DNA of 64,000 bases, taken from NCBI GenBank assembly GCA_965214775.1, contig OZ243974.1:2400001-2464000 (forward strand). Reading direction: 5' to 3'. Positions within the stretch are counted from its first letter, which is position 1, and each line of letters begins with the position of its first letter. Origin of the DNA: Nitrosopumilus sp. (GTDB lineage: Archaea > Thermoproteota > Nitrososphaeria > Nitrososphaerales > Nitrosopumilaceae). Shown here one piece after another: positions 1 through 53,827 of the stretch. The notes under the pieces are model-generated. The model saw only the letters and a program-made list of their open reading frames with translations, searched no databases and was not told the DNA's origin. The position numbers and the translations under genes are program-made.

Positions 1-1332
1 TACGTATTCGTTTCTCAATACCCCTACACGTAATTTGCCGAATTTAAGATAGTCTGCGGTTTGAATCATTACGTCAGATAATGACAAATCCTTCAACACC
101 CTTTTTGTGAACAGATCAATTCTGCTTCCATTGGGATGGACAAGTATCTCGTCAGGATATAGACGCAAGTCTTCTTGCGAATATTCGGTTTCGATTATTT
201 TTTCATACGCTAATTTTTCAGTAAGCACTTTACAAAGAATTTCAAAGTCCGATGGTTTTTCAACTATCAGGTCGCAATCCTTGGTGACTGCCTTTAGCTT
301 TTTTAATCTCATATTTTCCCCGCCCATAAGAAATATCTGTAAGGGCTCGGCAAGACTGCTTCCTATGTCTTCAAATAGTGACGGTGCAGGTGTCGGTATG
401 ACATACTGTTCGGGCTTTATCTCGTATAGTTCTGCCTTTGATACAAATTCATTCCATGGGAGAAATAGGCTTTCATTTTTTAATTTTTGTCTTCTAATAT
501 ATCCTTCAACATCCAACCATGTGGATGATATCCCAAAAGACGATGCAGTTTCCCTTAGCCGCTTGACATCAACCCTGTTTTTATTATGGATATAAAATAC
601 TGCAGACATGATTAAGCCCATTTTGTCATTGGCCTTGAACGATGCCAATACCGAATGAATGATTATGTCGTGAATGTCCAGGGGCTCATCTTGTTTGACA
701 TAGTAATCATATGGGGATTCATACATTATTCCATTGTTCGTAAAAACAGAAAAAGCAGTCAGCTCTCCTTCGGTTATTTTTCCTTTTGTAACTTTTCTGA
801 CAATTTTTTCCTTATCTGCATAGAGTACTTCCGCATCAGACTCGTAGAATCTTTCTCTTTCAGTTCTTAAGATTCTTGCAAAATCGACTAGTTCGGTTTT
901 AGATGCGTCTATGTGCATTCTTTCAGGTGTTTTACCTGTGTGATTTTCATTCCTGCGGATTTCTTTTCGTATTATTCCAATTGCTTCAAGATCGGAGATT
1001 GCACGATAAACTGTAGATGTTGACAATCCCGTATTGGTTACAATCTCATTAATGGTCAGCGGGTCAATTAGATACGAAAATACAAGTTCATTGGAATCCC
1101 GCAAAAGATTTACCAAATTCCATTTCTGGGATATTTTTTTGAGCAGTATTGTTTTTGCACTTTCCTGTAATGCTATCGTCTTGCCTTCTTTTTTGATATA
1201 CCCGTCTTGAAGCAGTTTTTTTACTACCTCGTTGAATTGACATGTTTTTACTTTACTAATCTTCTTTAATGCTGCAATATCATGTGTGTTGTTGATGATT
1301 GCCTTGACTAAAGATATTGATGTACTATTCAT
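1..1332 (-). CDS. wHTH protein fused to DUF6036/AbiEii-like nucleotidyltransferase (3' end runs off window)
   Basis: Manually translated open frame from ATG at 1332 to base 1 (absent from ORF track). HTH 'LTINEIVTNTGLSTSTVYRAISDLEAIGII'; C-terminal NTase motif 'IFLMGGENMRLKKLKAVTKDCDLIV...RIDLF'. Confidence 0.75.
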   Translation of the reverse strand, partial: MNSTSISLVKAIINNTHDIAALKKISKVKTCQFNEVVKKLLQDGYIKKEGKTIALQESAKTILLKKISQKWNLVNLLRDSNELVFSYLIDPLTINEIVTNTGLSTSTVYRAISDLEAIGIIRKEIRRNENHTGKTPERMHIDASKTELVDFARILRTERERFYESDAEVLYADKEKIVRKVTKGKITEGELTAFSVFTNNGIMYESPYDYYVKQDEPLDIHDIIIHSVLASFKANDKMGLIMSAVFYIHNKNRVDVKRLRETASSFGISSTWLDVEGYIRRQKLKNESLFLPWNEFVSKAELYEIKPEQYVIPTPAPSLFEDIGSSLAEPLQIFLMGGENMRLKKLKAVTKDCDLIVEKPSDFEILCKVLTEKLAYEKIIETEYSQEDLRLYPDEILVHPNGSRIDLFTKRVLKDLSLSDVMIQTADYLKFGKLRVGVLRNEYV

Positions 1333-1550
1333 TTAATATCATTAAAACATAATTATATATAACGATTTATGATTTAATGATACTGATATAATAATACAAA
1401 ATAAACAGATGTGTTTGCTTTATCCACTTGAAAGCATTGGGCTGCCCTTCCTCACTTCCTCCTTTCCTACCACCATGTCTCCATATATGGCTGTTCTATC
1501 CCTCATCTCACGTCCAAACATTAGTCTGATGCGACCCACCGTAACCATAT

Positions 1551-2678
1551 GTGTCTCAAAAACAAAATTCAGATGGTGCCAAGATAAATGGCAATGCAAA
1601 CAAACAGATTACCGCAAAAAAGAGGATACATGTGAAATCAAAGACTGTACAAATACAACAACAACAGCAGTATGTCGGCCTGGACGTGCACAAGAATTTC
1701 ATCCAGGTCGCGGTGATGGACAAGGGCGGCAAGATGCTGAGTAACACAAGAGTCGACAACAATGACGACGAGATAAGAAAGATATTTTCAGGGATTCCAA
1801 AGAATGCAAAGTGCGTCATGGAGTCCTCTTCAGTATGGTACGGGCTGTTCAGGTTCATTTCAGACAGTCTCAAAAGGGACGTGATCCTCTCAAACCCGTT
1901 TGAGACCAAGGCCATTGCCACATCAAAGAAAAAGACAGACAAGGTCGACGCGCAGATTCTGGCAGATCTTCTCAGGGGAGGATACATATCTGCATGTTAC
2001 GTTCCCTCCGGCAAGACGGTACAGAACAGGCAGCTGACCAGGCACCGCGCAAAGACGATACAGTCAAGGACCGTACTAAAGAACCAGATACACGCAATAC
2101 TGCTGCAAAACAGGATACAGGTAAATGGGGATCCGTTCTCCAGACCGTGGATCTCAAGGGTGAGAGATCTGGACAACTTTAGGATAAATGACAAATTAAG
2201 CATAATTGACTCTATAAACGACAGAATAGTAGGCATTGACATGCGCATCAAGAGCGCAGTTGCCGACAATCCGGATGCAGTATTACTGCAGACGATTCCC
2301 GGGTTTGGCAGCTACACTGCACTGACCATGGCATCAGAGATAGACGGCGTTGACAGGTTTGCCGACTCACACAAGCTGTGCGCGTATGCCGGAATGGTGC
2401 CGTCTGTGAGAAACTCTGCAGACACCATCCACCATGGAAGGATAACAAAGAGGGGCAGCCCCATGATGAGGTGGCTCCTAGTGGAGTCAGTACACAGCCA
2501 CGTAAGACATGCGCCGTCAGACTCGCCGATATCTGTCTTTTACAAGAGGGTTGCAAAGAAGAGGGGAACGTCCAAGGCCGCAGTGGCTGCCGCATCCAAG
2601 ATGCTGCGCATATCATACTGGATGCTAAAGAAGAGGATGACCTTCAAGCAGTGCATAGGAGATGCGTGTGTGAAATGA
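1551..2678 (+). CDS. IS110 family transposase/recombinase
   Basis: VGLDVHK, MESS, KTDKVDA (DEDD RuvC-like); IPGFG, AYAGMVPSVRNS, GRITKRG motifs. Confidence 0.95.
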   Translation: MSQKQNSDGAKINGNANKQITAKKRIHVKSKTVQIQQQQQYVGLDVHKNFIQVAVMDKGGKMLSNTRVDNNDDEIRKIFSGIPKNAKCVMESSSVWYGLFRFISDSLKRDVILSNPFETKAIATSKKKTDKVDAQILADLLRGGYISACYVPSGKTVQNRQLTRHRAKTIQSRTVLKNQIHAILLQNRIQVNGDPFSRPWISRVRDLDNFRINDKLSIIDSINDRIVGIDMRIKSAVADNPDAVLLQTIPGFGSYTALTMASEIDGVDRFADSHKLCAYAGMVPSVRNSADTIHHGRITKRGSPMMRWLLVESVHSHVRHAPSDSPISVFYKRVAKKRGTSKAAVAAASKMLRISYWMLKKRMTFKQCIGDACVK

Positions 2679-2699
2679 ATGTTGGTATTACCATTACAG

Positions 2700-2913
2700 T
2701 TAGAACTTTAATCTGCGTTAACCTAGTTGAGGGCGATCCTCGTTTTGTAACTGCAGAATGGTTCTGACAAATGGATGAAGAATGGTGCTGAGGGAGATCC
2801 TCGTATAGATAAGTGTCCGACCTTCATTTTGGAATTGTCAGGAAAGACCCCCAGCCAAAGCCATGCCTCACAACACCGTTGCGCGTGGAATCCTTATAAA
2901 CGTGACACATAGA
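2700..2913 (+). ncRNA. Putative bridge/seek RNA of IS110 copy 1 (also present in copies 2 and 3)
   Basis: Two loops capped by GAGGG(C/A)GATCCTC hairpins; stems TCTGC/GCAGA, CTGACAA/TTGTCAG, ATGAAG/CTTCAT; loop arms match IS ends and flanks. Transcript boundaries unknown. Confidence 0.7.
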
Positions 2914-3082
2914 TAACTGCAGAATGGTTCTGACAAATGGATGAAGAATGGTGCTGAGGGAGATCCTCGTATAGATAAGTGTCCGACCTTCATTTTGGAA
3001 TTGTCAGGAAAGACCCCCAGCCAAAGCCATGCCTCACAACACCGTTGCGCGTGGAATCCTTATAAACGTGACACATAGATAA
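2748..3082. repeat. 166-bp direct tandem duplication of the IS110 3' end
   Basis: 2748-2913 is repeated at 2914-3079. Confidence 0.95.
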
Positions 3083-3195
3083 TAGGTTAGCCCTTGCCTA
3101 GGCAGCAATCAGGCATGAATCTGCCTCTAGTTACGATTTTCATGCCTGAACAGACGGGGGTGTGACTTTAACTCTAGGCAGGGGCTAACCTGTTA
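3080..3195. repeat. Palindromic MITE-like element between the inverted IS110 copies
   Basis: TIR AGGTTAGCCC(T/C)TGCCTAG at both ends; inner TCAGGCATGAA/TTCATGCCTGA. Confidence 0.75.
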
Positions 3196-4570
3196 TCTAT
3201 GTGTCATGTTTATAAGGATTCCACGCGCAACGGTGTTGTGAGGCATGGCTTTGGCTGGGGGTCTTTCCTGACAATTCCAAAATGAAGGTCGGACATTTAT
3301 CTATACGAGGATCTCCCTCAGCACCATTCTTCATCCATTTATCAGAACCATTCTGCAGTTACAAAACGAGGATCGCCCTCAACTAGGTTAACGCAGATTA
3401 AAGTTCTAACTGTAATGGTAATACCAACATTCATTTCACACACGCATCTCCTATGCACTGCTTGAAGGTCATCCTCTTCTTTAGCATCCAGTATGATATG
3501 CGCAGCATCTTGGATGCGGCAGCCACTGCGGCCTTGGACATTCCCCTCTTCTTTGCAACCCTCTTGTAAAAGACAGATATCGGCGAGTCTGACGGCGCAT
3601 GTCTTACGTGGCTGTGTACTGACTCCACCAGGAGCCACCTCATCATGGGGCTGCCCCTCTTTGTTATCCTTCCATGGTGAATGGTGTCTGCAGAGTTTCT
3701 CACAGACGGCACCATTCCGGCATACGCGCACAGCTTGTGTGAGTCGGCAAACCTGTCAACGCCGTCTATCTCTGATGCCATGGTCAGTGCAGTGTAGCTG
3801 CCAAACCCGGGAATCGTCTGCAGTAAGACTGCATCCGGACTGTCGGCAACCGCGCTCTTGATGCGCATGTCAATGCCTACTATCCTGTCGTTTATGGAGT
3901 CAATTATGCTTAATTTGTCATTTATCCTAAAGTTGTCCAGATCTCTCACCCTTGAGATCCACGGTCTGGAGAACGGATCCCCATTTACCTGTATCCTGTT
4001 TTGCAGCAGTATTGCGTGTATCTGGTTCTTTAGTACGGTCCTTGACTGTATCGTCTTTGCGCGGTGCCTGGTCAGCTGCCTGTTCTGTACAGTCTTGCCG
4101 GAGGGAACGTAGCATGCAGATATGTATCCTCCCCTGAGAAGATCTGCCAGAATCTGCGCGTCGACCTTGTCTGTCTTTTTCTTTGATGTGGCAATGACCT
4201 TGGTCTCAAACGGGTTTGAGAGGATCACGTCCCTTTTGAGACTGTCTGAAATGAACCTGAACAGCCCGTACCATACTGAAGAGGACTCCATGACGCACTT
4301 TGCATTCTTTGGAATCCCTGCAAATATCTTTCTTATCTCGTCGTCATTGTTGTCGACTCTTGTGTTGCTCAGCACCTTGCCGCCCTTGTCCATCACCGCG
4401 ACCTGGATGAAATTCTTGTGCACGTCCAGGCCGACATACTGCTGCTGTTGTTGTTGTATTTGTACAGTCTTTGATTTCACATGTATCCTCTTTTTTGCGG
4501 TAATCTGTTTGTTTGCATTGCCATTTATCTTGGCACCATCTGAATTTTGTTTTTGAGACACATATGGTTA
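3194..4570 (-). mobile_element. IS110 family (IS1111-like) element, copy 2
   Basis: Near-identical to copy 1, inverted; single 3' non-coding region. Confidence 0.9.
3431..4561 (-). CDS. IS110 family transposase/recombinase
   Basis: Differs from 1551..2678 by a few substitutions and one extra Gln. Confidence 0.95.
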   Translation of the reverse strand: MSQKQNSDGAKINGNANKQITAKKRIHVKSKTVQIQQQQQQYVGLDVHKNFIQVAVMDKGGKVLSNTRVDNNDDEIRKIFAGIPKNAKCVMESSSVWYGLFRFISDSLKRDVILSNPFETKVIATSKKKTDKVDAQILADLLRGGYISACYVPSGKTVQNRQLTRHRAKTIQSRTVLKNQIHAILLQNRIQVNGDPFSRPWISRVRDLDNFRINDKLSIIDSINDRIVGIDMRIKSAVADSPDAVLLQTIPGFGSYTALTMASEIDGVDRFADSHKLCAYAGMVPSVRNSADTIHHGRITKRGSPMMRWLLVESVHSHVRHAPSDSPISVFYKRVAKKRGMSKAAVAAASKMLRISYWMLKKRMTFKQCIGDACVK

Positions 4571-4609
4571 CAGTCCGTTTACACATCATCAAAATCTGCC
4601 AATCTCGAA

Positions 4610-6385
4610 TCAACCTTCTGCGGGGCTAACCTGCACCCACGCGCCGTCCCGGATCTGCCACACTGCATAGTCCGTACGCAGCCTGTCTCCTGCATCGTTA
4701 AACTCGATGTTGCTTCCGCTTGCACCATCGTACTCTTGCGCCACCGAGACGATCCCGTCTGCCACGTCCGGCGCAAAGCCGGTCTGGCCGTCAAGTACTG
4801 CCTCTCCTATCAGTCGCATGGCATCATACGCAAAGAACGCATACACGCTTGGCTGCCTGCCGAGGACCTCGACGAGCCGCGCCTCCACGTCTTCTGTCAC
4901 GTCGCCGTACGGAACGGTGGGCTGGACGGATGTAAACTCCACGGCCTCTGCAAACCGCAGTGCCTCCGCACTGCCTGCCGGTACCGTGTTGGCATCGGCG
5001 CCAAACCATCTGACGCCTGCCAGCACATCATGCTTTGTGGCCTCCTCTAAAAAGTCATAGGTCTCCTCAAAGCCTATAAACAGGACTGCGACCTTGTCTG
5101 CGCCATGGATGCCGACCTGTCCGGACACTGTCTCTGAGAGCATCCAAATGTGTTGATCAAACTGGCCTGATGCGTCATACAGCACAGGCTCTGAGAACAT
5201 AACTGTTCCTTCTCCATTCTCCTCCTCTACGTCTGCCATGTGTCTCTCATCGGACTCGGGTGATGTATCTGCCTCGACAAACGCCATACCTGTGTTGTCA
5301 ATGAGATCAGTAACCCATATGCCGTCCCTTCCTGCGGGAACCACGACCTTTATTCCCTCGATTGCCATCAGCCGGGCAAGCGCCTCGCCGTGGCCGCGGT
5401 GATCAGATATCATGCGCATCAGCGAGTCTCCCGCTGTGGCATAGTCTGTCACGACAGAGCAGCAACTAAAAAGCAGCATGCCGTTCTCATCGGCATAGTC
5501 TATGACATCTCTCTCAAAGATGTCAATTGAGGGGCCAACGACCAGCCGGACTCCCTGCTCCCTTAGCTCTGCCACGCCCTCCAGCTCCCTGCTGCCGTCT
5601 GTACCTGTATCGTAAACTATGACCTCAAGATACCACGGATGGCCGCCTGCCTCCAGCTTTGCGTTAAAGTCGTCGGCTGCCGTTTTTGCTGCATCTGTTA
5701 TGTCCTGGCCGTATCCTGCGGCGCCTCCGCTGATGGGTGCAAGCAGTCCCACTGTAACTGTGTGCATCTCCCAGTTCTGTATGGTCTCATAGGCTGCCAG
5801 ATCATAGCCTATCTCAGAGAGCGTTTCGTACGTGGAGGGCTTTAGACACGTGGGCATTGCAGAGTCCCTCAGAAACGGCTCCCTCGGCGCGTTGCACTGT
5901 ATGGCAGAAAGGAAGACGCCGTCCCTGTACTGCGTTGCCGGCGGGTCGTGTCGTACAGCATACGTGCCGCTGCCAAAGACGTACCCGTCATGCAGGACCA
6001 GCAGCGTGTGCTTGACCTCGTCGCGGCCGGTGGCCGGATTCAGGAACACATAGTATATCCTGGTCTCCCCGTCTGCATCAAGCTCCGCGTTTATCTGCTC
6101 TAGCGTCTTGTCCGGACGTATGCTGTCCAGCGCATTCGTACCAACAAGGGACGGATTGGTCCCGTGTGCCAGCACCAGGCCGTCCCTGCCAAGCACAAAC
6201 GGATAGTGCTCCCTGTCACTTTGCATTGTTATGGCCTCAAGTCCGGACTCTTTGTACGTCTCTATGGCAGAGATGATCTGGGCCCGCGCCGGATCCTGGT
6301 AGGCGTCTTCTGCATATGCAATGCCGCCTGCAGCAGGCATCAATGCCGCAAGTACTGCCAGCGCAACTATCACAGTCTTTTCCAA
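4610..6385 (-). CDS. Secreted Cache-like domain plus branched-chain amino acid ABC-type substrate-binding protein
   Basis: Signal peptide; 'HYPFVLG..GLVLAHG...YYVFLNPATG..EVK...YVFGSG' Cache-like; 'VGLLAPISG..AGYG', 'YAFFAYDA', 'FNDAGDR' PBP type 1. Confidence 0.8.
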   Translation of the reverse strand: MEKTVIVALAVLAALMPAAGGIAYAEDAYQDPARAQIISAIETYKESGLEAITMQSDREHYPFVLGRDGLVLAHGTNPSLVGTNALDSIRPDKTLEQINAELDADGETRIYYVFLNPATGRDEVKHTLLVLHDGYVFGSGTYAVRHDPPATQYRDGVFLSAIQCNAPREPFLRDSAMPTCLKPSTYETLSEIGYDLAAYETIQNWEMHTVTVGLLAPISGGAAGYGQDITDAAKTAADDFNAKLEAGGHPWYLEVIVYDTGTDGSRELEGVAELREQGVRLVVGPSIDIFERDVIDYADENGMLLFSCCSVVTDYATAGDSLMRMISDHRGHGEALARLMAIEGIKVVVPAGRDGIWVTDLIDNTGMAFVEADTSPESDERHMADVEEENGEGTVMFSEPVLYDASGQFDQHIWMLSETVSGQVGIHGADKVAVLFIGFEETYDFLEEATKHDVLAGVRWFGADANTVPAGSAEALRFAEAVEFTSVQPTVPYGDVTEDVEARLVEVLGRQPSVYAFFAYDAMRLIGEAVLDGQTGFAPDVADGIVSVAQEYDGASGSNIEFNDAGDRLRTDYAVWQIRDGAWVQVSPAEG

Positions 6386-8605: not shown

Positions 8606-8687
8606 GTATAACATCAGATCCTATTTATGTTGGCAAGCAAATACTTCCTAGATTCCTAGGCGGTTTAAATAGAACCTGATGTTATAC
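8606..8687. repeat. IS66-type MITE; related copy ~53542-53607
   Basis: TIR GTATAACATCAG(A/G)T(C/T)CTATTT resembles the TIR GTACAACTTCAGATCC of the IS66 at 17997. Confidence 0.75.
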
Positions 8688-9557: not shown

Positions 9558-10136
9558 TCTATGTGTCGTGCTTATAAGGATTCCACGCGTAACGGTGTTG
9601 TGAAGTATGGCTTTGGCTGGGGGTCTCTTCCTGACAATCACAAAATGAAGGTCGGACACTTATCTATACGAGGATCTCCCTCAGTACCATTCTTCATCCA
9701 TTTGTCAGAACCGTTCTGCAGTTACTAAACGAGGATCTCCCTCAACTACATCAACGCAGATTAAAGTTCTAACTGTAATGACAATAATAATAATGATGAT
9801 GACGTTCATTTCACACGCATGTCCACTATGCACTGACTGAAGGCCATCTATTTCTTTAGCATACGAGGACTCCATGACGCACCTGGTGTTATCCGGAATC
9901 TTTGCAAACATCTCTCTTATCTCGCTGTTCCTGTTGCTTATTTTTGTATTCCCCAGGACCTTGCCGTCCTTGTCCATCACCGCGACCTGGATGGACTCCT
10001 TGTGCACGTCCAGGCCGACATACTGCTGCTCCGCCTTTGATTTCACACATATCCTTTTTTTTGCGCTAATCTGTCTGTTTGCATTGCCTTTTATCTTGGT
10101 ACCATCTGAATTTTGTTTTTGAGACACATATGGTTA
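9556..10136 (-). mobile_element. Internally deleted IS110 copy 3 (non-autonomous) retaining both ends and the ncRNA
   Basis: Same ends as copies 1 and 2; transposase jumps from 'MESS' to the last codons; diverged in sequence. Confidence 0.9.
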
Positions 10137-17928: not shown

Positions 17929-18127
17929 CTGAGAGTTGATTCGAAATTAGCAGACTCTGATTATTTGTGAACGAATTTGCATAAAGCAGCTCAAAAGTAC
18001 AACTTCAGATCCTTTTTATACTGACTAGGGAACTTTTTGCCCGGAACTTTTTGATCCTTCCGCATCTGCTGTGACAGACCCGCTACATCACACCACACGT
18101 CCCTTGTATATGCAAGACCGGCAGCGC

Positions 18128-18169
18128 GCAGACAACAGATTATTGGCAGACAACAGATTATTGGCAGAC
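18128..18169. repeat. 18-bp tandem repeat in the IS66 3' non-coding region
   Basis: GCAGACAACAGATTATTG x2 plus GCAGAC. Confidence 0.85.
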
Positions 18170-18292
18170 GGCACCTGCAGGAAACCAGCATTGTCAGATT
18201 TGCCTGGCGTTGTTGACTGGCAGACTTGCCTGCACAGTCGGATTCTTTGACATGAAGCTACGGGTTACGCCGTCCCGTAGACGCCAGACGGA

Positions 18293-19894
18293 TCATGTTG
18301 TTGTAGGAGCTGCTGCTGCTGGTACGACGGCCGTCCGGTTCCGGCGTACCGCTCCTCTGCTGCTGCCTGCGTCATCATCGACTACAGGCCGCCACACCGG
18401 CGGCGGCCCGGGACACTCAAAGACGCTGTATCTTGTACCGTCCGTATTGACAAGCAAGGACAGCAGGCGCGCATCATTATCATCATCTCTTGCATCTGCA
18501 AAGATATCCCAGACCGGATTCCGCAGGTATTTCAAGAGTCCGCCGGCAGGATGTATATTCTGCTTGCGACATGTCATCGAGAACGTCAGCAGCGCAGAAG
18601 CCGTCTTTCTTCCCCCGTCAGTTACGATCTTGTGGCGTGCATTGCGTTGTGGTATGATCCCGTCGCGTATGCACCGCTCCGTATCGTTGTTGTGCAGCGG
18701 CATTCCCCGATGCGCCAGACACGTAAACATGTTGGGCATGGCGTTTAGCAGGTGTGTACGCACGTGAACGTCCTCATACGGGTTGATTATTTTGTATACT
18801 TCCCTGGAAAGATCCATGTATGTAAGCGGCGCAAGCGTCTTGATTTTATCTATCTTCCTGTAGAATTCCAGCAGCAAGTCATACCTTTTCTCATCATCGC
18901 CTTCGGGCATCTTTACTGCAAGCTTTTCTGCATACGCCAGAAGGTGCCTCCAACACCTCTGGATTATATCAAAGAACAGCTTGTACTGGGCCAGTTCGTC
19001 TACGACTATGGGAGTCTTGGGATCCAGCCATCCAAAGTGCGTGTGCAGTACCTCGGAGGACCGGGAATCTGCAAAGACCACAAAGCACGCCCCCTCGCAG
19101 TTGAGCACCCAGACGTACCCCGTGTGCCCGTCGCCGCGCTTAAAGCCGGTCTCGTCCATCTGTATCCACGGCCTGCCCGCAATGAATGACTGTATGCGTT
19201 GTATCATGTTTTGTTGAATCGCCTCTGCCACTGTGTGCCGGGCGGCAGTCACGGTATTTGGGGCCATCCTGAATCCAAACATATACTGAAAGTACTCTGC
19301 AATGTCCTCGTCTGTGTTTCCCTTCTCAAAGAACATCATGATTAGAGAGAGTGAGACGGGCCCAAGTGACGTGCCGCTTAGAAACGGGGTGGCCGCTACA
19401 TGCACGGTATTGCACTGTGGACACACCGCGTTTTGGATGATGGCATTGGCAGTGAGCATGCGCATAAAACCGTCCAGGTCGTTGACAAGCTTGTGGATCG
19501 GCTTGAGCATCCGTAACTGGATGTTGCACCTTGGGCATATTTTGGAGCCAAGATCGTACCTTAATGTCATGGATGGCCGGTTGCCGTGCGATGTACCATG
19601 GTGTCCGCACGGAGGGCCGCGTTTCTTGCCCCGAGCAGCATCGCCTGGACTGCCGCCGGGATCCTCGCCCCTTTTCTCCCTGAACTTTCTTCTGGCATCA
19701 TTGTGTAATGACGGCGTGGACGTGGGCATGTTGGGACTCTCGTACAGGGCAAGCCTTGCCCGGAGCTCGGAGTTCTCCTCTTTGATGTCGGAGTTCTCCT
19801 TTTCCAGCTCGGAGATCTTCTCATCCCGCTCCTTGATCATGACAAGTGCCTTTGCAAGATCCATATGGTGTGCAGGCGTAGATTTGGAGTCCAT
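18293..19894 (-). CDS. IS66-family transposase
   Basis: Coiled coil, CxxC pairs, MDETG, YVW, QRCWRHL, HNN..ER motifs. Confidence 0.9.
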   Translation of the reverse strand: MDSKSTPAHHMDLAKALVMIKERDEKISELEKENSDIKEENSELRARLALYESPNMPTSTPSLHNDARRKFREKRGEDPGGSPGDAARGKKRGPPCGHHGTSHGNRPSMTLRYDLGSKICPRCNIQLRMLKPIHKLVNDLDGFMRMLTANAIIQNAVCPQCNTVHVAATPFLSGTSLGPVSLSLIMMFFEKGNTDEDIAEYFQYMFGFRMAPNTVTAARHTVAEAIQQNMIQRIQSFIAGRPWIQMDETGFKRGDGHTGYVWVLNCEGACFVVFADSRSSEVLHTHFGWLDPKTPIVVDELAQYKLFFDIIQRCWRHLLAYAEKLAVKMPEGDDEKRYDLLLEFYRKIDKIKTLAPLTYMDLSREVYKIINPYEDVHVRTHLLNAMPNMFTCLAHRGMPLHNNDTERCIRDGIIPQRNARHKIVTDGGRKTASALLTFSMTCRKQNIHPAGGLLKYLRNPVWDIFADARDDDNDARLLSLLVNTDGTRYSVFECPGPPPVWRPVVDDDAGSSRGAVRRNRTAVVPAAAAPTTT

Positions 19895-20113
19895 GTGTTA
19901 CATCAAACAGGCATGATCAAAAAAGATTTCCATCGAAATTCTTTGACTAGGATGCCGATAATGGATCACCCCAGCAAATTCCAATCCTGCAATGACTGGT
20001 CACAAATGTCTGATGTTCAGCCATGTTCGCAGGGGCATCTGATCATAAGATGCTGCCCAAAAATGTTTGACTGTCAGTATAAAAAGGACCTGAAGTTGTA
20101 CCTTAAGTCCATA

Positions 20114-23100
20114 GTTTCAATCCTTGTTATGATGGATTAGTCATTACGACTTGTAGGGCGGCGCTAAAACTATCAAAGTCCATAGTTTCAATCCTTGTTA
20201 TGATGGATTAGTCATTACGACTACCTTTTTTCTTAGTATGAATTACTACGTTCACCGTTTCAATCCTTGTTATAATGGATTAGTCATTACGACCGTTTTT
20301 GGATCTGTTTGAAGGTGCATATTACGGGTTTCAATCCTTGTTATGATGGATTAGTCATTACGACGGCTGAACCATGATGTTATGCCTTCACGGTTAGAAG
20401 TTTCAATCCTTGTTATGATGGATTAGTCATTACGACAAAGAGATGGAAGGCAAGGACATACCAGCAATGGAGTTTCAATCCTTGTTATGATGGATTAGTC
20501 ATTACGACTAGCCCAAACCCAAATATCCCCGGAGGCTTTTTTGGTTTCAATCCTTGTTATGATGGATTAGTCATTACGACATTCCGGAGGCAGTTACAGA
20601 TCAGTGGGTAAAAAAGTTTCAATCCTTGTTATGATGGATTAGTCATTACGACAAACTTACAAGGTAACCCATGTGACAACGCATGAAAGTTTCAATCCTT
20701 GTTATGATGGATTAGTCATTACGACCTTCTGGAATTGTTCTAATTCCATTTTGTTGATAGTTTCAATCCTTGTTATGATGGATTAGTCATTACGACGGAA
20801 AAGCTGAAACTATTATCAGAAAAGGATAGACGTTTCAATCCTTGTTATGATGGATTAGTCATTACGACCTAACCTAGACATTTTTGGTGAGGAAATCGAG
20901 ACTGTTTCAATCCTTGTTATGATGGATTAGTCATTACGACTCGATATGACATTGACCACAATTAGGACAGTTATCCAGTTTCAATCCTTGTTATGATGGA
21001 TTAGTCATTACGACATTAGAAAAGAGTTTGAATTTCAAACTGTATTTTCCGTTTCAATCCTTGTTATGATGGATTAGTCATTACGACGTGTTTTTTCATA
21101 GTCGTTATATTCTAGTCTTAAGTTTCAATCCTTGTTATGATGGATTAGTCATTACGACAAACCAATATACCCAGAGGTATCAATCTGGTCTAAGTTTCAA
21201 TCCTTGTTATGATGGATTAGTCATTACGACATGCTCTGCAAATTTGCAGAGTTTTGCAACAACGGGTTTCAATCCTTGTTATGATGGATTAGTCATTACG
21301 ACTATCAAACAGTAAAAGCAAATAGGGCCATTTTGCTGTTTCAATCCTTGTTATGATGGATTAGTCATTACGACTTCGATCTGTGCTTTGCATTTCTCAA
21401 GTTGTTTTCCCAGTTTCAATCCTTGTTATGATGGATTAGTCATTACGACTGTTTTATGGTATTAAAATAGGCTGGCGGTTCCGCCGTTTCAATCCTTGTT
21501 ATGATGGATTAGTCATTACGACTGATTTTTGTTTTTTGAATCCGCCCTACTCACATTGTTTCAATCCTTGTTATGATGGATTAGTCATTACGACCTAACC
21601 ATAGACAACAACACGGACACGGCCCATCCGTTTCAATCCTTGTTATGATGGATTAGTCATTACGACCCGATAAGATTCAGACTTTTCAACTTGATGCTGA
21701 GGTTTCAATCCTTGTTATGATGGATTAGTCATTACGACTCGATGCAGCTCCTCGGCCTCTTGCTTTGTTGAGCGGTTTCAATCCTTGTTATGATGGATTA
21801 GTCATTACGACCAGCATTTCGGTTTTTCCAGTCCCCGCCGGGCCGCGTTTCAATCCTTGTTATGATGGATTAGTCATTACGACAATGGACACGCCGCAAC
21901 ATTGAAGGCTTTCTTGACTTGTTTCAATCCTTGTTATGATGGATTAGTCATTACGACAAGTCATCAGAATCGTGGCCTTTGGACTGGGAATGTTTCAATC
22001 CTTGTTATGATGGATTAGTCATTACGACTCACTTAGCATTCGGTGTATGGTTCTTAGACTAACTTTGGTTTCAATCCTTGTTATGATGGATTAGTCATTA
22101 CGACTGGCTTGTGGCCATATTCCTTGGTTAATGCATGAAAAGTTTCAATCCTTGTTATGATGGATTAGTCATTACGACCAGCCAAAAAAGAAGAATCTGA
22201 ATAATGCCCGAGCGTTTCAATCCTTGTTATGATGGATTAGTCATTACGACTTGCTCATGTCTAGTTATTCTCATGTACGTTATAGTTTCAATCCTTGTTA
22301 TGATGGATTAGTCATTACGACCGTTGCAATCCGGAAATATGACTTTGCCGAAATTGAGTTTCAATCCTTGTTATGATGGATTAGTCATTACGACGGTACA
22401 ACACTGTCTTCAATGTCGGGTATCGTATCGTTTCAATCCTTGTTATGATGGATTAGTCATTACGACATTAAATACCTGAAATGCAAACAATGTTCCTTGT
22501 AAAGTTTCAATCCTTGTTATGATGGATTAGTCATTACGACTGCTTTTTTCTGCTATTTCTTTTAGCAGTGTTCTTCGTTTCAATCCTTGTTATGATGGAT
22601 TAGTCATTACGACCTTTGACACAGACGCCGAGATCGTACAAGAAGTAAAGTTTCAATCCTTGTTATGATGGATTAGTCATTACGACTCCAGTTCTTCTTG
22701 TGAAGGGTTGAACATTTTTGGTTTCAATCCTTGTTATGATGGATTAGTCATTACGACGGGGATGGACATGACGGCGACCTGACCGTATCGGGTTTCAATC
22801 CTTGTTATGATGGATTAGTCATTACGACGGGAACGGAAGCGCAACGATGCCGAGCTGTATTTCCCGTTTCAATCCTTGTTATGATGGATTAGTCATTACG
22901 ACTCAAACTATCTGAAGAAAACAATTCCGTACAAGATTGTTTCAATCCTTGTTATGATGGATTAGTCATTACGACATTCGTTGGTCACGATATACGTTTA
23001 CTAGTCGTTCGTTTCAATCCTTGTTATGATGGATTAGTCATTACGACTCACTGATATTGTAACACATGTGTTACGTGACAAGTTTCAATCCTTGTTATGA

Positions 23101-25007
23101 TGGATTAGTCATTACGACCTAGCTGATACTGTGATAATGCAGTCGGGTTCGGTTTCAATCCTTGTTATGATGGATTAGTCATTACGACTCAAAAAGCACG
23201 GCTTTGCAGTCGACCCATGGCTGTTTCAATCCTTGTTATGATGGATTAGTCATTACGACCGAACAAATCCTTTAGTTCCGCTATCTTGGGATCAGTTTCA
23301 ATCCTTGTTATGATGGATTAGTCATTACGACAGAAAACTAGAAGAAGCCGTCGAGAACTTGAACAAGTTTCAATCCTTGTTATGATGGATTAGTCATTAC
23401 GACAAGAAAGATACAGTTTGATCTTCAAATGCGACTTGTTTCAATCCTTGTTATGATGGATTAGTCATTACGACATTACATCTATATACATAGATTTTTT
23501 ACAGCCCTCAGTTTCAATCCTTGTTATGATGGATTAGTCATTACGACCTCTTTTTTTGACTTTTTTGACTTTTTTTGATCGAGTTTCAATCCTTGTTATG
23601 ATGGATTAGTCATTACGACCGTCAATGAATTTCTGCGGGAGGTTTGCCGCCTGGGGTTTCAATCCTTGTTATGATGGATTAGTCATTACGACTCTGTATG
23701 AGCAGGGTACGGAAAACACCACGGTAGTTTCAATCCTTGTTATGATGGATTAGTCATTACGACCAACAACAACTAAGACAGCTAGACCCTGCCACCTTGT
23801 TTCAATCCTTGTTATGATGGATTAGTCATTACGACGGTCTCTAGTGCATTTACAATTTGGGTGCGTGTCGTTTCAATCCTTGTTATGATGGATTAGTCAT
23901 TACGACTGTTGTTTTAGCGTGCGTTTGGCCCATTGTGTTTGGTTTCAATCCTTGTTATGATGGATTAGTCATTACGACGTACGTGCAATACTGCTCAGAT
24001 TGCTGCGGGTCGTTTCAATCCTTGTTATGATGGATTAGTCATTACGACAAAGGCAGAAACGACACAACGTCTGTATGATATCTGGTTTCAATCCTTGTTA
24101 TGATGGATTAGTCATTACGACAGGATTATAGGGATGCTTTGCTGGATAGGGTAAAAGTTTCAATCCTTGTTATGATGGATTAGTCATTACGACTTTGCCG
24201 TTGACGTACCCCAACGCTTTCAAAATGTTTCAATCCTTGTTATGATGGATTAGTCATTACGACTTTTTGTTGTTGTGTCAATGGTTATACCGTGCCAGTT
24301 TCAATCCTTGTTATGATGGATTAGTCATTACGACAATACGGCCAGGGAGAAGTCAATTATGGCGAGGTGTTTCAATCCTTGTTATGATGGATTAGTCATT
24401 ACGACAGGGCAACAATATCAATCCAACCAAGGGTCAGCGGTTTCAATCCTTGTTATGATGGATTAGTCATTACGACCCAAAAATAGTTTCAATCCTTGGG
24501 AGATTAGTCAAAATTCAATCGTTTCCGCGAGGTGTTTCAATCCTTGTTATGATGGATTAGTCATTACGACTGGATCTCAATTTCAATTCATGGGTCATAG
24601 TTTCAATCCTTGTTATGATGGATTAGTCATTACGACTATAAAAATCGTTTTCCATGATCACCAGGTGTTTCAATCCTTGTTATGATGGATTAGTCATTAC
24701 GACTCATCGGCTCTTCCTGGATTTTATAATCATCAATGGTTTCAATCCTTGTTATGATGGATTAGTCATTACGACTGACTCTGAAACGGGCAGAGATCAA
24801 GTTTCCAGACGTCCAAATGTGGAGGGTTTCAATCCTTGTTATGATGGATTAGTCATTACGACGAACCAGGCGACAACTTTTATCCCGTCATACAATGGTT
24901 TCAATCCTTGTTATGATGGATTAGTCATTACGACAGATGACTTCAACAAATCTGCGGCTTTGAATCATACGTTTCAATCCTTGTTATGATGGATTAGTCA
25001 TTACGAC
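20114..25007 (-). CRISPR. CRISPR array, 68 repeats of 37 bp and 67 spacers
   Basis: Repeat on minus strand GTCGTAATGACTAATCCATCATAACAAGGATTGAAAC (canonical ATTGAAAC end); leader next to cas4; manual count; one variant repeat at 20257. Confidence 0.97.
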
Positions 25008-53489: not shown

Positions 53490-53827
53490 GCACAAATTCC
53501 AATCTGGAGAAGATCGTGATTTCATGCCTATATCACCAAGAGTACACAGAACCCTAGGAATCTAGGAAGTATTTGCTTGCCAGCATAAATAGGATCTGAA
53601 GTTGTACACTTTTTCTATGTTGTTCATTATTCGTGAACTGTCTGCAGAATCCTATTTCCGCGTTATGTAAGGAACAGCCTAAAATCATCCCGCATGTGCA
53701 TATCAGAACATATGCCAGACCAAACCATGATCAAAAAAATTAAACTGCAGACTTCCCATCGGTTTTAAACAAGGCATCTCCGGCTCAAAGACGCACAGGC
53801 ATGCCTTTTCAGATCCCCCCGCAAGTT

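What the first reader, a model, noticed from the sequence alone, without database searches (positions are those of the whole stretch)
2700..2845. Archaeal IS110 bridge-RNA-like element with readable target and donor loops, naturally retargeted between copies
Seen: the 3' non-coding region has two parallel loops, each capped by GAGGG(C/A)GATCCTC. Loop 2 carries ATGGT (2782-2786, reverse complement of ACCAT at the IS left end) and ATAGATA (2805-2811, identical to the right end including the shared TA); both are unchanged in all three copies. Loop 1 carries AACCT (2720-2724) in copies 1 and 2, whose right flanks read TA-NN-AGGTT. In copy 3 the same loop positions read GATGT and its flank reads TA-NN-ACATC, so three substitutions covary in exact register. 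The other arm ends in GTA, matching G|TA at all left junctions. Known: IS110/IS1111 recombinases use such bispecific ncRNAs, encoded downstream of the ORF in the IS1111 group. Inference: this is an archaeal RNA-programmable recombinase with a TA core and two guide alleles in one locus. Caveats: only three copies, a 5-nt match, and the GTAAC arm could instead be stem.
Basis: partly seen in the sequence, partly recalled or inferred. Interest (0 to 1): 0.92.

Follow-up and report, generated by a model that had tools for sequence, protein, structure and literature searches.

The report
Archaeal IS110 element with bridge RNA
A jumping gene in an ammonia-oxidising archaeon carries a small folded RNA whose loops spell out both its own ends and the DNA sites it inserts into, as in the RNA-guided IS110/IS1111 recombinases known from bacteria; this is a new archaeal example rather than a new mechanism.

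Summary
Window 1542-3079 is an IS110-family element: Pfam PF01548+PF02371 and NCBIfam "IS110 family RNA-guided transposase" at 235.6 bits against a cut-off of 140. It has a TA core, 8-bp subterminal inverted repeats and a ~130-nt structured region 3' of the transposase gene (about 2699-2830).

The fold has five helices and two open internal loops. It is conserved in relatives: 88% of cells are paired against 37-49% in slid controls, 17 of 28 pairs show compensatory changes, and 0 of 500 shuffles reach the observed values. RNAalifold finds the same helices.

- **Loop 1, 5' arm:** antisense to the right flank over 7-9 nt, not only 5.
- **Loop 1, 3' arm:** repeats the left flank plus TA.
- **Permutation tests:** right side, 50 guide alleles from 19 genomes give 6.61 of 9 matches against a null of 4.29 (0 of 5000). 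Left side, 35 alleles give 3.79 of 6 against 2.28 (0 of 5000).
- **Alleles in this genome:** four loop-1 alleles, each aimed at the first bases of another transposable element. Unoccupied target sites exist.
- **Loop 2:** covaries with the element's own ends.

No RNA or recombination test was possible.

The parts
1542..3079 (+). IS copy 1, full length, from the T of the left TA core to the last base before the right TA core (3080-3081). It carries one extra tandem 166-bp 3' unit.
   Evidence: BLAST against the element's own genome; end motifs and flanks; interrupted target terminus G|TA|ATAGGTT compared with unoccupied ends.
1551..2678 (+). Transposase ORF (375 aa as listed; the true start may be the in-frame GTG at 1632). 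DEDD RuvC-like domain plus Tnp domain.
   Evidence: ORF; PF01548 2.7e-24, PF02371 6.9e-22; NF033542, 235.6 bits, cut-off 140; aligns to IS621 8wt6 and ISCro4 9t56, catalytic residues conserved.
1548..1555 (+). Left subterminal inverted repeat TATGTGTC, 4 nt inside the core. Its partner GACACATA lies at 2904-2911 and, in the second unit, at 3070-3077.
   Evidence: Read directly. The same pattern appears in relatives' ends.
2699..2830 (+). Predicted bridge/seekRNA. P1 2699-2707 with 2760-2768; P2 2713-2717 with 2752-2756; cap 1 2729-2741; P3 2773-2776 with 2815-2818; cap 2 2790-2802. A T-rich tract near 2825-2830 may be the 3' end (inferred).
   Evidence: structure and covariation; model R1 hits window 2691-2838 at 138.3 bits.
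2718..2728 (+). Loop 1, 5' arm (TTAACCTAGTT): right-target guide, antisense to the right flank from the A of the core onward.
2742..2751 (+). Loop 1, 3' arm (GTTTTGTAAC): same sense as the left flank G plus the TA core plus the first two bases of the left end. The TA at 2748-2749 is also the boundary of the 166-bp unit.
   Evidence: left-flank test; solo units and the truncated copy break exactly here.
2777..2789 (+). Loop 2, 5' arm (contains ATGGT at 2782-2786): donor guide, antisense to the left-end bases ACCAT (1544-1548).
2803..2814 (+). Loop 2, 3' arm (contains ATAGATA at 2805-2811): donor guide, same sense as the right end ATAGA plus TA.
2748..2913 (+). First 166-bp 3' unit (loop 2 plus right end). 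It is repeated in tandem at 2914-3079.
   Evidence: self-matches with a 166-base offset; solo units elsewhere with the same G|TA left junction.
3080..3195 (.). Target element, a ~110-bp inverted-repeat element ('MITE-A'). Both of its termini are occupied by IS copies 1 and 2. Its first G is at 1541 and its last C at 4571.
   Evidence: 56 ends of this family in the genome, 4 occupied.
3196..4570 (-). IS copy 2, full length, loop-1 allele AACCT, right flank TA-AC-AGGTT. RNA model hit at 3271-3418.
9558..10136 (-). Copy 3: a 579-bp derivative with no transposase gene, loop-1 allele GATGT, right flank TA-CA-ACATC. RNA model hit at 9634-9781 (141 bits).

Best explanation
This is an IS110-family insertion sequence with IS1111-type organisation, in a Nitrososphaeria archaeon. 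Its 3' non-coding region most likely encodes a ~130-nt bridge (seek) RNA, transcribed in the same sense as the transposase gene.

The RNA folds into two internal loops, each closed by a short hairpin.
[quoted passage not shown] Its 3' arm has the sequence of the left half plus TA, so it would pair with the bottom strand.
- **Loop 2 reads the donor in the same way.** Its 5' arm is antisense to the first bases of the left end. Its 3' arm has the sequence of the right end plus TA.

The DEDD/Ser recombinase bound to this RNA would bring a circular right-end-TA-left-end junction together with the target and exchange strands at TA.

In this genome the loop-1 alleles send the elements to the first bases (G-TA-...) of three other families of transposable elements. 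Derivatives without a transposase gene carry their own RNA with a different guide (GATGT). They would therefore be moved in trans by the enzyme of the full-length copies.

What is shown: the family, the ends, the conserved fold, the guide-flank and guide-end covariation, and the unoccupied target sites. What is inferred: transcription, RNA-protein binding, the circular intermediate and the strand-exchange chemistry.
For: **Family.** PF01548 and PF02371; NF033542 'IS110 family RNA-guided transposase' at 235.6 bits, cut-off 140. The alignment to IS621 conserves the residues matching D11, E60, D102, D105 and S241.

**Activity.** Five full-length copies have intact ORFs 98-100% identical to each other.

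**Structure.**
- On 19 sequences from 17 genomes, 88.4% of 517 cells are paired, against 37-49% when partners are slid.
- 17 of 28 pairs have compensatory changes; 0 of 500 shuffles reach the observed values.
- RNAalifold independently returns P1, P2, both caps and P3 and leaves both loops open.
- Many conserved G-U pairs (for example 17 of 19 at columns 34/86 and 19 of 19 at 125/142) fit only the tnp-sense strand read as RNA.

**Target guide, right side.** Of 145 distinct rows, 119 were kept. They hold 50 alleles with a mean best match of 6.61 of 9, against a null of 4.29 (sd 0.13, maximum 4.76); 0 of 5000 permutations reach it. A stricter filter gives 41 alleles, 6.77 against 4.34, 0 of 5000.

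**Target guide, left side.** 86 rows hold 35 alleles, scoring 3.79 of 6 against 2.28 (sd 0.14), 0 of 5000.

**Target length.** Among copies sharing one guide, flank conservation ends after about 8-10 nt on the right and 4-6 nt on the left.

**This genome.**
- AACCT copies: 4 of 5 at AGGTT. GATGT copies: 6 of 8 at ACATC.
- The AAACT copy at 1197660 sits at a third target family, matching 7 of 9. A right-end fragment at 1782131 sits at the same family, matching 8 of 9.
- Unoccupied targets read G-TA-AY-AGGTT and G-TA-CA-ACATC.
- ACATC ends are occupied 4 of 16 times, ACTTC ends 1 of 46 times, p = 0.014.

**Donor guide.** The right-end states ATAGA, ATGGA, ATGGG and ATAGG, and the left-end states ACCAT, ACTAT, GTCAT and ATCAT, track the two arms of loop 2.

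**By-products at the guide-encoded TA.** A tandem 166-bp unit, solo units and one copy cut exactly at the loop-1 3' arm G-TA.

**Literature.** The same arm order is described for IS1111-type seekRNAs (PMC11187229). IS1111 members that target the terminal repeats of other transposons are known (reference list of PMC11208160).
Against: - No call tested the RNA, the RNP or recombination. Everything beyond sequence is inferred from homologous systems.
- The single-sequence fold is only modestly better than shuffles (z = -2.2; 8 of 200 shuffles fold as well). It pairs GUUA with UAAC, which hides the TA of the 3' arm.
- 11 of 50 alleles score 5 of 9 or less. Examples are the single copies in G126 (L056), G129 (L073) and G323 (L070), and the copy of this genome at 1535917, whose flank reads TC-AG-CTAAG.
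- The register between guide and core shifts by one base in some lineages (G230, and the GACCT allele here). I therefore allowed shifts of +-2, in the null as well.
- The same-sense control lies slightly above its null (4.18 against 3.89; 34 of 5000).
- The alleles come from related elements and are not fully independent.
- The 5' arm of loop 2 is also identical, in the same sense, to a motif about 30 nt inside the left end, and roughly antisense to a motif inside the right end. The simple donor-guide model does not explain this.
- Model R1 finds nothing next to the nearest named relatives, ISHvo10 and a Halorubrum element.
- Rfam has no matching family.
Confidence: 0.85

Rival explanations
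1. The conserved 3' region works as DNA, not RNA. Single-stranded or extruded DNA hairpins in the element's end would pair with the target, as the subterminal guide sequences of IS200/IS605 elements do, or would serve as protein-binding sites.
For: None of my calls shows an RNA. The arms also match DNA-level by-products: breaks and duplications exactly at the TA inside the arm-encoding DNA. The 5' arm of loop 2 has same-sense copies inside the left end, as binding sites would.
Against: Conserved G-U pairs in the helices (17 of 19 and 19 of 19 at two positions) would be A-C mismatches on the other strand and are weak in DNA. The protein belongs to the family that NCBI names RNA-guided and shares the IS621 active site. 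In the IS1111 members that were tested, the 3' region gives an RNA that co-purifies with the transposase (PMC11187229, abstract and section 9).
Confidence: 0.05
2. The region encodes a structured RNA or 3' UTR with another role, such as regulating the transposase, or it is a hitch-hiking small RNA module like Ssr9/MITEPpu9 of ISPpu9. Target choice would then be made by the protein.
For: The 166-bp 3' unit behaves as a separate module: tandem, solo and excised forms exist. This parallels ISPpu9, where the ssr9 module forms its own circles and is not needed for transposition (PMC12288879, abstract and passages).
Against: A regulatory RNA does not predict that loop arms change together with the flanking target in 50 alleles and with the element's own ends. 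The 166-bp unit contains loop 2, whose arms match the element's ends, so it is not unrelated cargo.
Confidence: 0.05
3. The loop-flank complementarity is chance or an artefact of boundaries. Either the 'flank' is really part of the element, or the copies arose by duplication of larger segments.
For: Within the window alone there are only three copies and a 5-nt match. In this genome the flanks are themselves repeated sequences.
Against: The same target termini exist unoccupied: 52 of 56 MITE-A ends, and 57 of 62 ACATC/ACTTC ends of the 2.1-kb element. The left flanks of all copies differ. The permutation tests give 0 of 5000 on both sides. In relatives, the flanks are unique beyond about 10 nt.
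Confidence: 0.02

Closest known systems
IS1111-group elements with a 3' seekRNA / bridge RNA (ISEc11, ISPa11, ISKpn4; Siddiquee et al. 2024, PMC11187229; Durrant et al. 2024, PMC11208160)
   Same: DEDD/Ser transposase; the longer non-coding region lies downstream of the gene; subterminal inverted repeats; a short core dinucleotide flanks the insertion; the top-strand match lies 5' of the bottom-strand match; each close variant has its own target.
   Different: The host is an archaeon (Nitrososphaeria). Both target and donor guides sit in simple internal loops; Durrant et al. note a multi-loop donor site in many IS1111 members (passage read). The protein is only about 34-36% identical to the nearest named elements. 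Nothing has been tested experimentally here.
IS621 bridge recombinase and bridge RNA (PDB 8WT6; PMC11208158)
   Same: Same protein family and active-site residues. The RNA has two loops with target and donor guides, and the core is included in or adjacent to the pairings. The bases after the core in the 3' arm (AC, the first bases of the left end) resemble handshake guides; this last point is inference.
   Different: The IS621 RNA lies 5' of the gene and its arm order is the reverse: the 5' side pairs with the bottom strand. Its core is CT, not TA. Protein similarity is low (E = 1e-9).
[quoted passage not shown]
   Same: An IS110-family element whose natural target is the terminus of another transposable element.
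   Different: I know these only from titles in reference lists; the paper itself was not read. Here three unrelated target families are hit by three guide alleles in one genome.
ISPpu9 / MITEPpu9 modular transposition (PMC12288879) and tandem non-coding units beside IS110 transposases (bioRxiv 10.64898/2026.08.14.744561)
   Same: A 3' non-coding module is found attached, solo and duplicated, bounded by sequences that resemble the IS ends.
   Different: Here the 166-bp module contains the donor-binding loop itself, and its left boundary is the TA inside the DNA that encodes the target loop's 3' arm.
ISHvo10 family (Haloferax volcanii), the nearest named element
   Same: An archaeal IS110-family transposase, 34% identical over 87% of the query. 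The seekRNA paper lists it among the diverged relatives of IS1111 (section 6).
   Different: That paper says ISHvo10 has long non-coding regions on both sides. RNA model R1 finds nothing in its locus.

Membership tests
IS110 family (DEDD RNA-guided transposases) | N-terminal DEDD RuvC-like domain (PF01548) plus C-terminal Tnp domain (PF02371) | tested here: met
   PF01548 at 2.7e-24 (86.2 bits, cut-off 29); PF02371 at 6.9e-22 (78.1 bits, cut-off 21.3).
IS110 family (DEDD RNA-guided transposases) | Scores above the curated cut-off of NCBIfam NF033542 | tested here: met
   235.6 bits against a cut-off of 140, covering profile positions 1-341 of 343.
IS110 family (DEDD RNA-guided transposases) | Catalytic D, E, D, D and the Ser of the G--P----S(G) motif | tested here: met
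   GLDVHK, MESSS, TDKVDA and GMVPSVRNSA align with the IS621 stretches that hold D11, E60, D102/D105 and S241 (residues named). The residue after Ser is A, not G.
IS110 family (DEDD RNA-guided transposases) | Site-specific insertion with only a short core repeated at both junctions and no terminal inverted repeats | tested here: met
   TA at both junctions. Unoccupied sites read G-TA-AY-AGGTT and G-TA-CA-ACATC.
IS110 family (DEDD RNA-guided transposases) | Circular intermediate with a right-end/left-end junction | not testable with these tools
   The contigs of four public runs showed no joints, and contigs cannot show rare circles.
IS1111 group | The longer non-coding region lies downstream of the transposase gene | tested here: met
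   at most 90 nt upstream (1542-1631) against 235 nt downstream (2679-2913, one unit).
IS1111 group | Subterminal inverted repeats of 7-17 bp | tested here: met
   TATGTGTC at 1548-1555 and GACACATA at 2904-2911, 8 bp, lying 4 and 2 nt from the core.
IS1111 group | The transposase falls in the IS1111 clade of a family tree | not tested
   No IS1111 reference proteins were on hand. The nearest named hit is the ISHvo10 family at 34% identity.
Bridge RNA / seekRNA | A structured RNA with loops whose arms match both strands of the target and of the donor ends | tested here: met
   fold; target; donor.
Bridge RNA / seekRNA | Guide and target covary across orthologues | tested here: met
   right side 0 of 5000 and left side 0 of 5000 permutations reach the observed scores.
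Bridge RNA / seekRNA | IS1111-type order: the top-strand match lies 5' of the bottom-strand match | tested here: met
   compared with PMC11187229 section 9.
Bridge RNA / seekRNA | The RNA is made, binds the transposase and is required; changing the guide changes the target | not testable with these tools
   An experiment is needed. The natural alleles are consistent with it.
Bridge RNA / seekRNA | Match to a curated RNA family | tested here: not met
   no Rfam 15 family matches window 2600-3100 (best hit 9.7 bits to an unrelated lncRNA model). I did not check whether Rfam 15 holds any bridge-RNA family, so this says little about membership.

The most novel reading that the evidence does not exclude
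Ammonia-oxidising archaea and their relatives (Nitrososphaeria) carry a working clade of RNA-guided recombinases whose guides diversify inside single genomes. This genome has at least four alleles, and the genomes sampled here hold 50.

In this genome the guide RNA also travels on short elements that lack the enzyme. These elements carry a guide (GATGT) found on none of the six full-length copies, so they would be retargeted parasites of the autonomous element that aim at the tips of other transposons.

If the system is active and programmable, it would be a native tool for DNA insertion in a group of archaea that, as far as I recall, has no genetic system.
Probability: 0.6. Interest if true: 0.65.

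Novelty: new member of a known kind. Interest (0 to 1): 0.5.

Why it matters
The finding extends RNA-guided (bridge/seekRNA) recombination, with sequence-level support on both sides of the target and on both ends of the donor, to a clade of mesophilic archaea that matters ecologically.

It also supplies a natural table of about 50 guide-target pairs with a simple two-loop RNA. That is the information needed to design a reconstitution experiment.

It shows in one genome how changing a few loop bases moves an element from one family of host transposons to another, and that enzyme-less derivatives can carry their own guide.

For specialists the mechanism is expected. The value lies in the resource and in a possible genetic tool, not in a new principle.

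Tried and rejected
- **RNA evidence:** The look-up of sequencing runs listed no RNA holder, so expression could not be examined.
- **Public runs:** I laid the contigs of four runs on window 1300-4800. They gave only loose ends at the element borders (1540, 2745-2749, 3193-3197, 4572), which match other copies of the same genome. There were no joints, and nothing was learned about circles or excision.
- **Rfam:** the gathering scan of the whole window and the permissive scan of 2600-3100 found no family for this region.
- **Model R1 on haloarchaeal loci:** with filters off, it found nothing in the ISHvo10 and Halorubrum loci.
- **Automatic anchoring:** a first attempt to anchor loop 2 and the right end by fuzzy motifs picked false sites inside coding sequence. 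I replaced it with the covariance model.
- **Cap-hairpin filter:** the first version was too strict and dropped 49 of 145 rows. I loosened it to drop 26, and both results are reported.
- **TATA-like TTTAAT at 2707-2712:** considered as a promoter and rejected, because it is not conserved in relatives and would start transcription inside loop 1.
- **The 166-bp unit as the insertion target rather than part of the element:** considered and rejected, because the whole span from left end to right end sits between the G and the TA of interrupted target termini.
- **Literature:**
  - A search for IS110 together with Nitrososphaera, Thaumarchaeota, Nitrosopumilus or AOA listed 15 of 2,346 papers; one of those listed mentions IS110, once, and I did not read it.
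  - A search for bridge RNA, MITE, non-autonomous and IS110 returned only the ISPpu9 paper as relevant.
  - I found no paper that describes this clade's RNA.

Full report
**What is there**

The window lies at 2,400,001-2,464,000 of a single-contig genome of 2.83 Mb. The genome is archaeal. The archaeal SSU model matches full length at 1459 bits, and a 56%-identical homologue of the transposase is named from Nitrosopumilus.

Window 1542-3079 is an insertion sequence. Its 375-aa ORF (1551-2678) carries PF01548 and PF02371. It scores 235.6 bits, against a cut-off of 140, on NCBIfam NF033542, 'IS110 family RNA-guided transposase'. It aligns to the solved IS621 and ISCro4 recombinases, and the residues that match IS621 D11, E60, D102, D105 and S241 are conserved (residues named in passages of PMC11208158).

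The element begins G|TA-ACCATATG and ends ACATAGA-TA. It has 8-bp subterminal inverted repeats, TATGTGTC at 1548-1555 and GACACATA at 2904-2911. Its long non-coding region is downstream of the gene. These are the features used to tell the IS1111 type from the IS110 type (PMC11187229 section 6; PMC11208160 passages).

**Checking the observation**

- 48 BLAST matches.
- 16 copies of loop 1.
- 15 elements with both ends: six full-length (one interrupted), seven derivatives of 579 bp and two of about 605 bp that lack the transposase gene.

The loop-1 alleles are AACCT (5 copies), AAACT (2), GATGT (8) and GACCT (1).

| Allele | Copies | Right flank |
|---|---|---|
| AACCT | 5 | AGGTT in 4, AGGAT in 1 |
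| GATGT | 8 | ACATC in 6, ACTTC in 1, ACATT in 1 |
| GACCT | 1 | TAGGTC, one base closer to the core |

For AAACT, one copy (at 1535917) has a flank that does not match. The other (at 1197660) sits at a third kind of site, CG-AATTT-ACCCC.

**What the targets are**

The flanks are the very tips of other transposable elements.
- A ~110-bp inverted-repeat element, whose terminus reads GTAAY-AGG(T/A)TAGCCCC. It has 56 ends in the genome, of which 4 are occupied.
- A ~2.1-kb element, whose terminus reads GTACA-AC(T/A)TCAGG.
- A third family, beginning GTACGAGTTTACCCC.

In two cases I checked for each of the first two families, 8-bp target duplications lie outside the G. The conserved G at the left junction of the IS is therefore the first base of the interrupted terminus. 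That explains why nothing further left is conserved in this genome.

Unoccupied ends read exactly as the model requires. In the window itself, one small element (3080-3195) has both tips occupied, by copies 1 and 2 in opposite orientation.

Among the ends of the 2.1-kb element, the minority ACATC variant is occupied 4 of 16 times and the majority ACTTC variant 1 of 46 times (Fisher p = 0.014). A fifth occupied ACATC end fell out of the count because of a one-base deletion in my anchor.

**The fold**

Nineteen sequences from 17 genomes align over about 150 nt. Five helices (P1, P2, cap 1, P3, cap 2) are supported.
- 88.4% of 517 cells are paired, against 37-49% with slid partners.
- 17 of 28 pairs have changes on both sides.
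- 0 of 500 shuffles reach the observed values.

RNAalifold predicts the same helices without being told and leaves both internal loops unpaired. Frequent conserved G-U pairs fit only the tnp-sense strand.

The single-sequence fold is less persuasive (z = -2.2).

**Relatives**

- The transposase has homologues in 42 of 301 genomes sampled from the class. One of these, G315, is unpublished and enters only this count.
- A covariance model built from the alignment (R1) finds the RNA in 25 of the 26 genomes that I passed to it.
- I fetched 120 further regions and aligned 166 hits to the model. This gave 145 distinct combinations of arms and flanks.
- I dropped 26 rows in which P2 or cap 1 did not pair, or in which the flank was only the tandem unit. 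All dropped rows are listed.

**Permutation tests**

The 5' arm of loop 1, reverse-complemented, was laid on the right flank from the A of the core, with shifts of up to two bases allowed.
- **Right side:** 50 alleles match at 6.61 of 9 positions on average. Permuting flanks among alleles gives 4.29 (sd 0.13, maximum 4.76); 0 of 5000 permutations reach the observed value.
- **Stricter filter:** 41 alleles, 6.77 against 4.34, 0 of 5000.
- **Left side:** the variable six bases of the 3' arm equal the left flank at 3.79 of 6 positions, against 2.28 (35 alleles, 0 of 5000).
- **Same-sense control for the 5' arm:** barely above its null (4.18 against 3.89).

Copies that share a guide share only about 8-10 bases on the right and 4-6 on the left. 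Beyond that their flanks are unique. Several genomes hold many alleles, each next to its cognate site.

Not all alleles fit. Eleven of 50 score 5 or less, and some single copies (L056, L070, L073) do not match on the right.

**The donor loop**

The 3' arm of loop 2 carries the right-end sequence in each of its states (ATAGA, ATGGA, ATGGG, ATAGG). The 5' arm is antisense to the left-end states ACCAT, ACTAT, GTCAT and ATCAT, with some one-base misfits.

One thing is unexplained. The same 5' arm is identical, in the same sense and over about 7 nt, to a motif some 30 nt inside the left end, and roughly complementary to a motif inside the right end. These two motifs look like a second pair of subterminal repeats.

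**By-products**

The DNA that encodes the loop-1 3' arm (G-TA-AC) looks like a left junction, and it behaves like one.
- The 166 bp from that TA to the right end occur in tandem: copy 1 here and two other copies.
- They occur alone, with a G|TA left junction, at three loci.
- They are missing from the copy at 1197660, where the arm's G-TA is joined directly to the target.

Comparable modular behaviour is described for ISPpu9/MITEPpu9 (PMC12288879), and for tandem non-coding units next to IS110 transposases (bioRxiv 10.64898/2026.08.14.744561, passages).

**How it most likely works**

The mechanism is set out under Best explanation. Its arm order (5' arm to the top strand, 3' arm to the bottom strand) is the one reported for IS1111-type seekRNAs and is the reverse of IS621. 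Everything in it beyond the sequence comparisons above is inferred.

The enzyme-less derivatives in this genome carry GATGT or GACCT guides. None of the six full-length copies carries either guide. They must therefore use the enzyme in trans together with their own RNA, unless their autonomous parent has been lost.

**Novelty**

Bridge RNAs have been predicted for 85.7% of IS110 entries and 93.0% of IS1111 entries in ISfinder. Archaeal IS110 recombinases are catalogued (662 in bioRxiv 2024.06.21.599552). Archaeal entries such as ISHvo9 and ISHvo10 were in the seekRNA survey.

I file this as a new member of a known kind, with moderate interest. The mechanism is expected. The contribution is the archaeal clade, the clear two-loop anatomy, the natural set of guide-target pairs and the derivatives that carry their own guide.

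Noticed in passing
window 20114-25007 (minus strand): A large CRISPR array: 68 repeats match Rfam CRISPR-DR7 (RF01320) at 38-41 bits.
   Followed up: no
window 3080-3195; 56 ends genome-wide: A ~110-bp inverted-repeat element with termini GTAAY-AGG(T/A)TAGCCCCTGCCTAG and 8-bp target duplications. It is the natural target of the AACCT and ATCCT guide alleles.
   Followed up: partly
window 18002-20096; also short forms near window 8611-8678 and an end at 53602: A ~2.1-kb element with termini GTACA-AC(T/A)TCAGGTCCTTTTTATACTG and 8-bp target duplications; there are about 60 ends in the genome. The minority ACATC variant is the target of the GATGT allele. Its own genes were not examined.
   Followed up: partly
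G000 C1 1197640-1197660, 1782116-1782131, 335240, 41258: A third repeat family whose terminus begins GTACGAGTTTACCCCTCA. It matches the AAACT guide allele at 7-8 of 9 positions.
   Followed up: partly
window 1572-1582 and 2779-2789; the same places in relatives: The 5' arm of loop 2 (for example GAATGGTGC, or GATAGCAT in other lineages) is identical in the same sense to a motif about 30 nt inside the left end. It is roughly antisense to a motif inside the right end (about window 2862-2870). All of them change together between lineages. The simple donor-guide model does not explain this.
   Followed up: partly
window about 1596-1612 and the left ends of relatives (loci L054-L079): A stretch GCAAACAAACAGATTA upstream of the DEDD domain is conserved at the DNA level even where the proteins are only about 50% identical. 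It may be a regulatory or binding site rather than coding sequence.
   Followed up: no
G000 C1 548984, 808415, 1299348 and others: Solo left-end pieces of about 68 bp. In three of them the piece is joined to one and the same unrelated repeat, which suggests another composite short element that borrows this left end.
   Followed up: partly
loci L057-L061, L066 and others: In many relatives the stop codon of the transposase gene (TAG in GGTTAG) lies inside helix P1 of the RNA. The RNA would then overlap the end of the mRNA and may be processed from it.
   Followed up: no
L175, L176, L054 (genome G288, another genus of the family): G288 carries the same enzyme-less GATGT element (identical model score of 141 bits; flank TACAACATCA). 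It also carries AAACT and ATCCT alleles, the last beside an AGGAT-type terminus. This suggests recent exchange between genera or shared inheritance.
   Followed up: partly
G000 C1 634031-634400: One full-length copy has a partial duplication of about 110 bp. It starts at the TA just after cap 2, inside the DNA that encodes the 3' arm of loop 2. This is another break at a G-TA site.
   Followed up: partly
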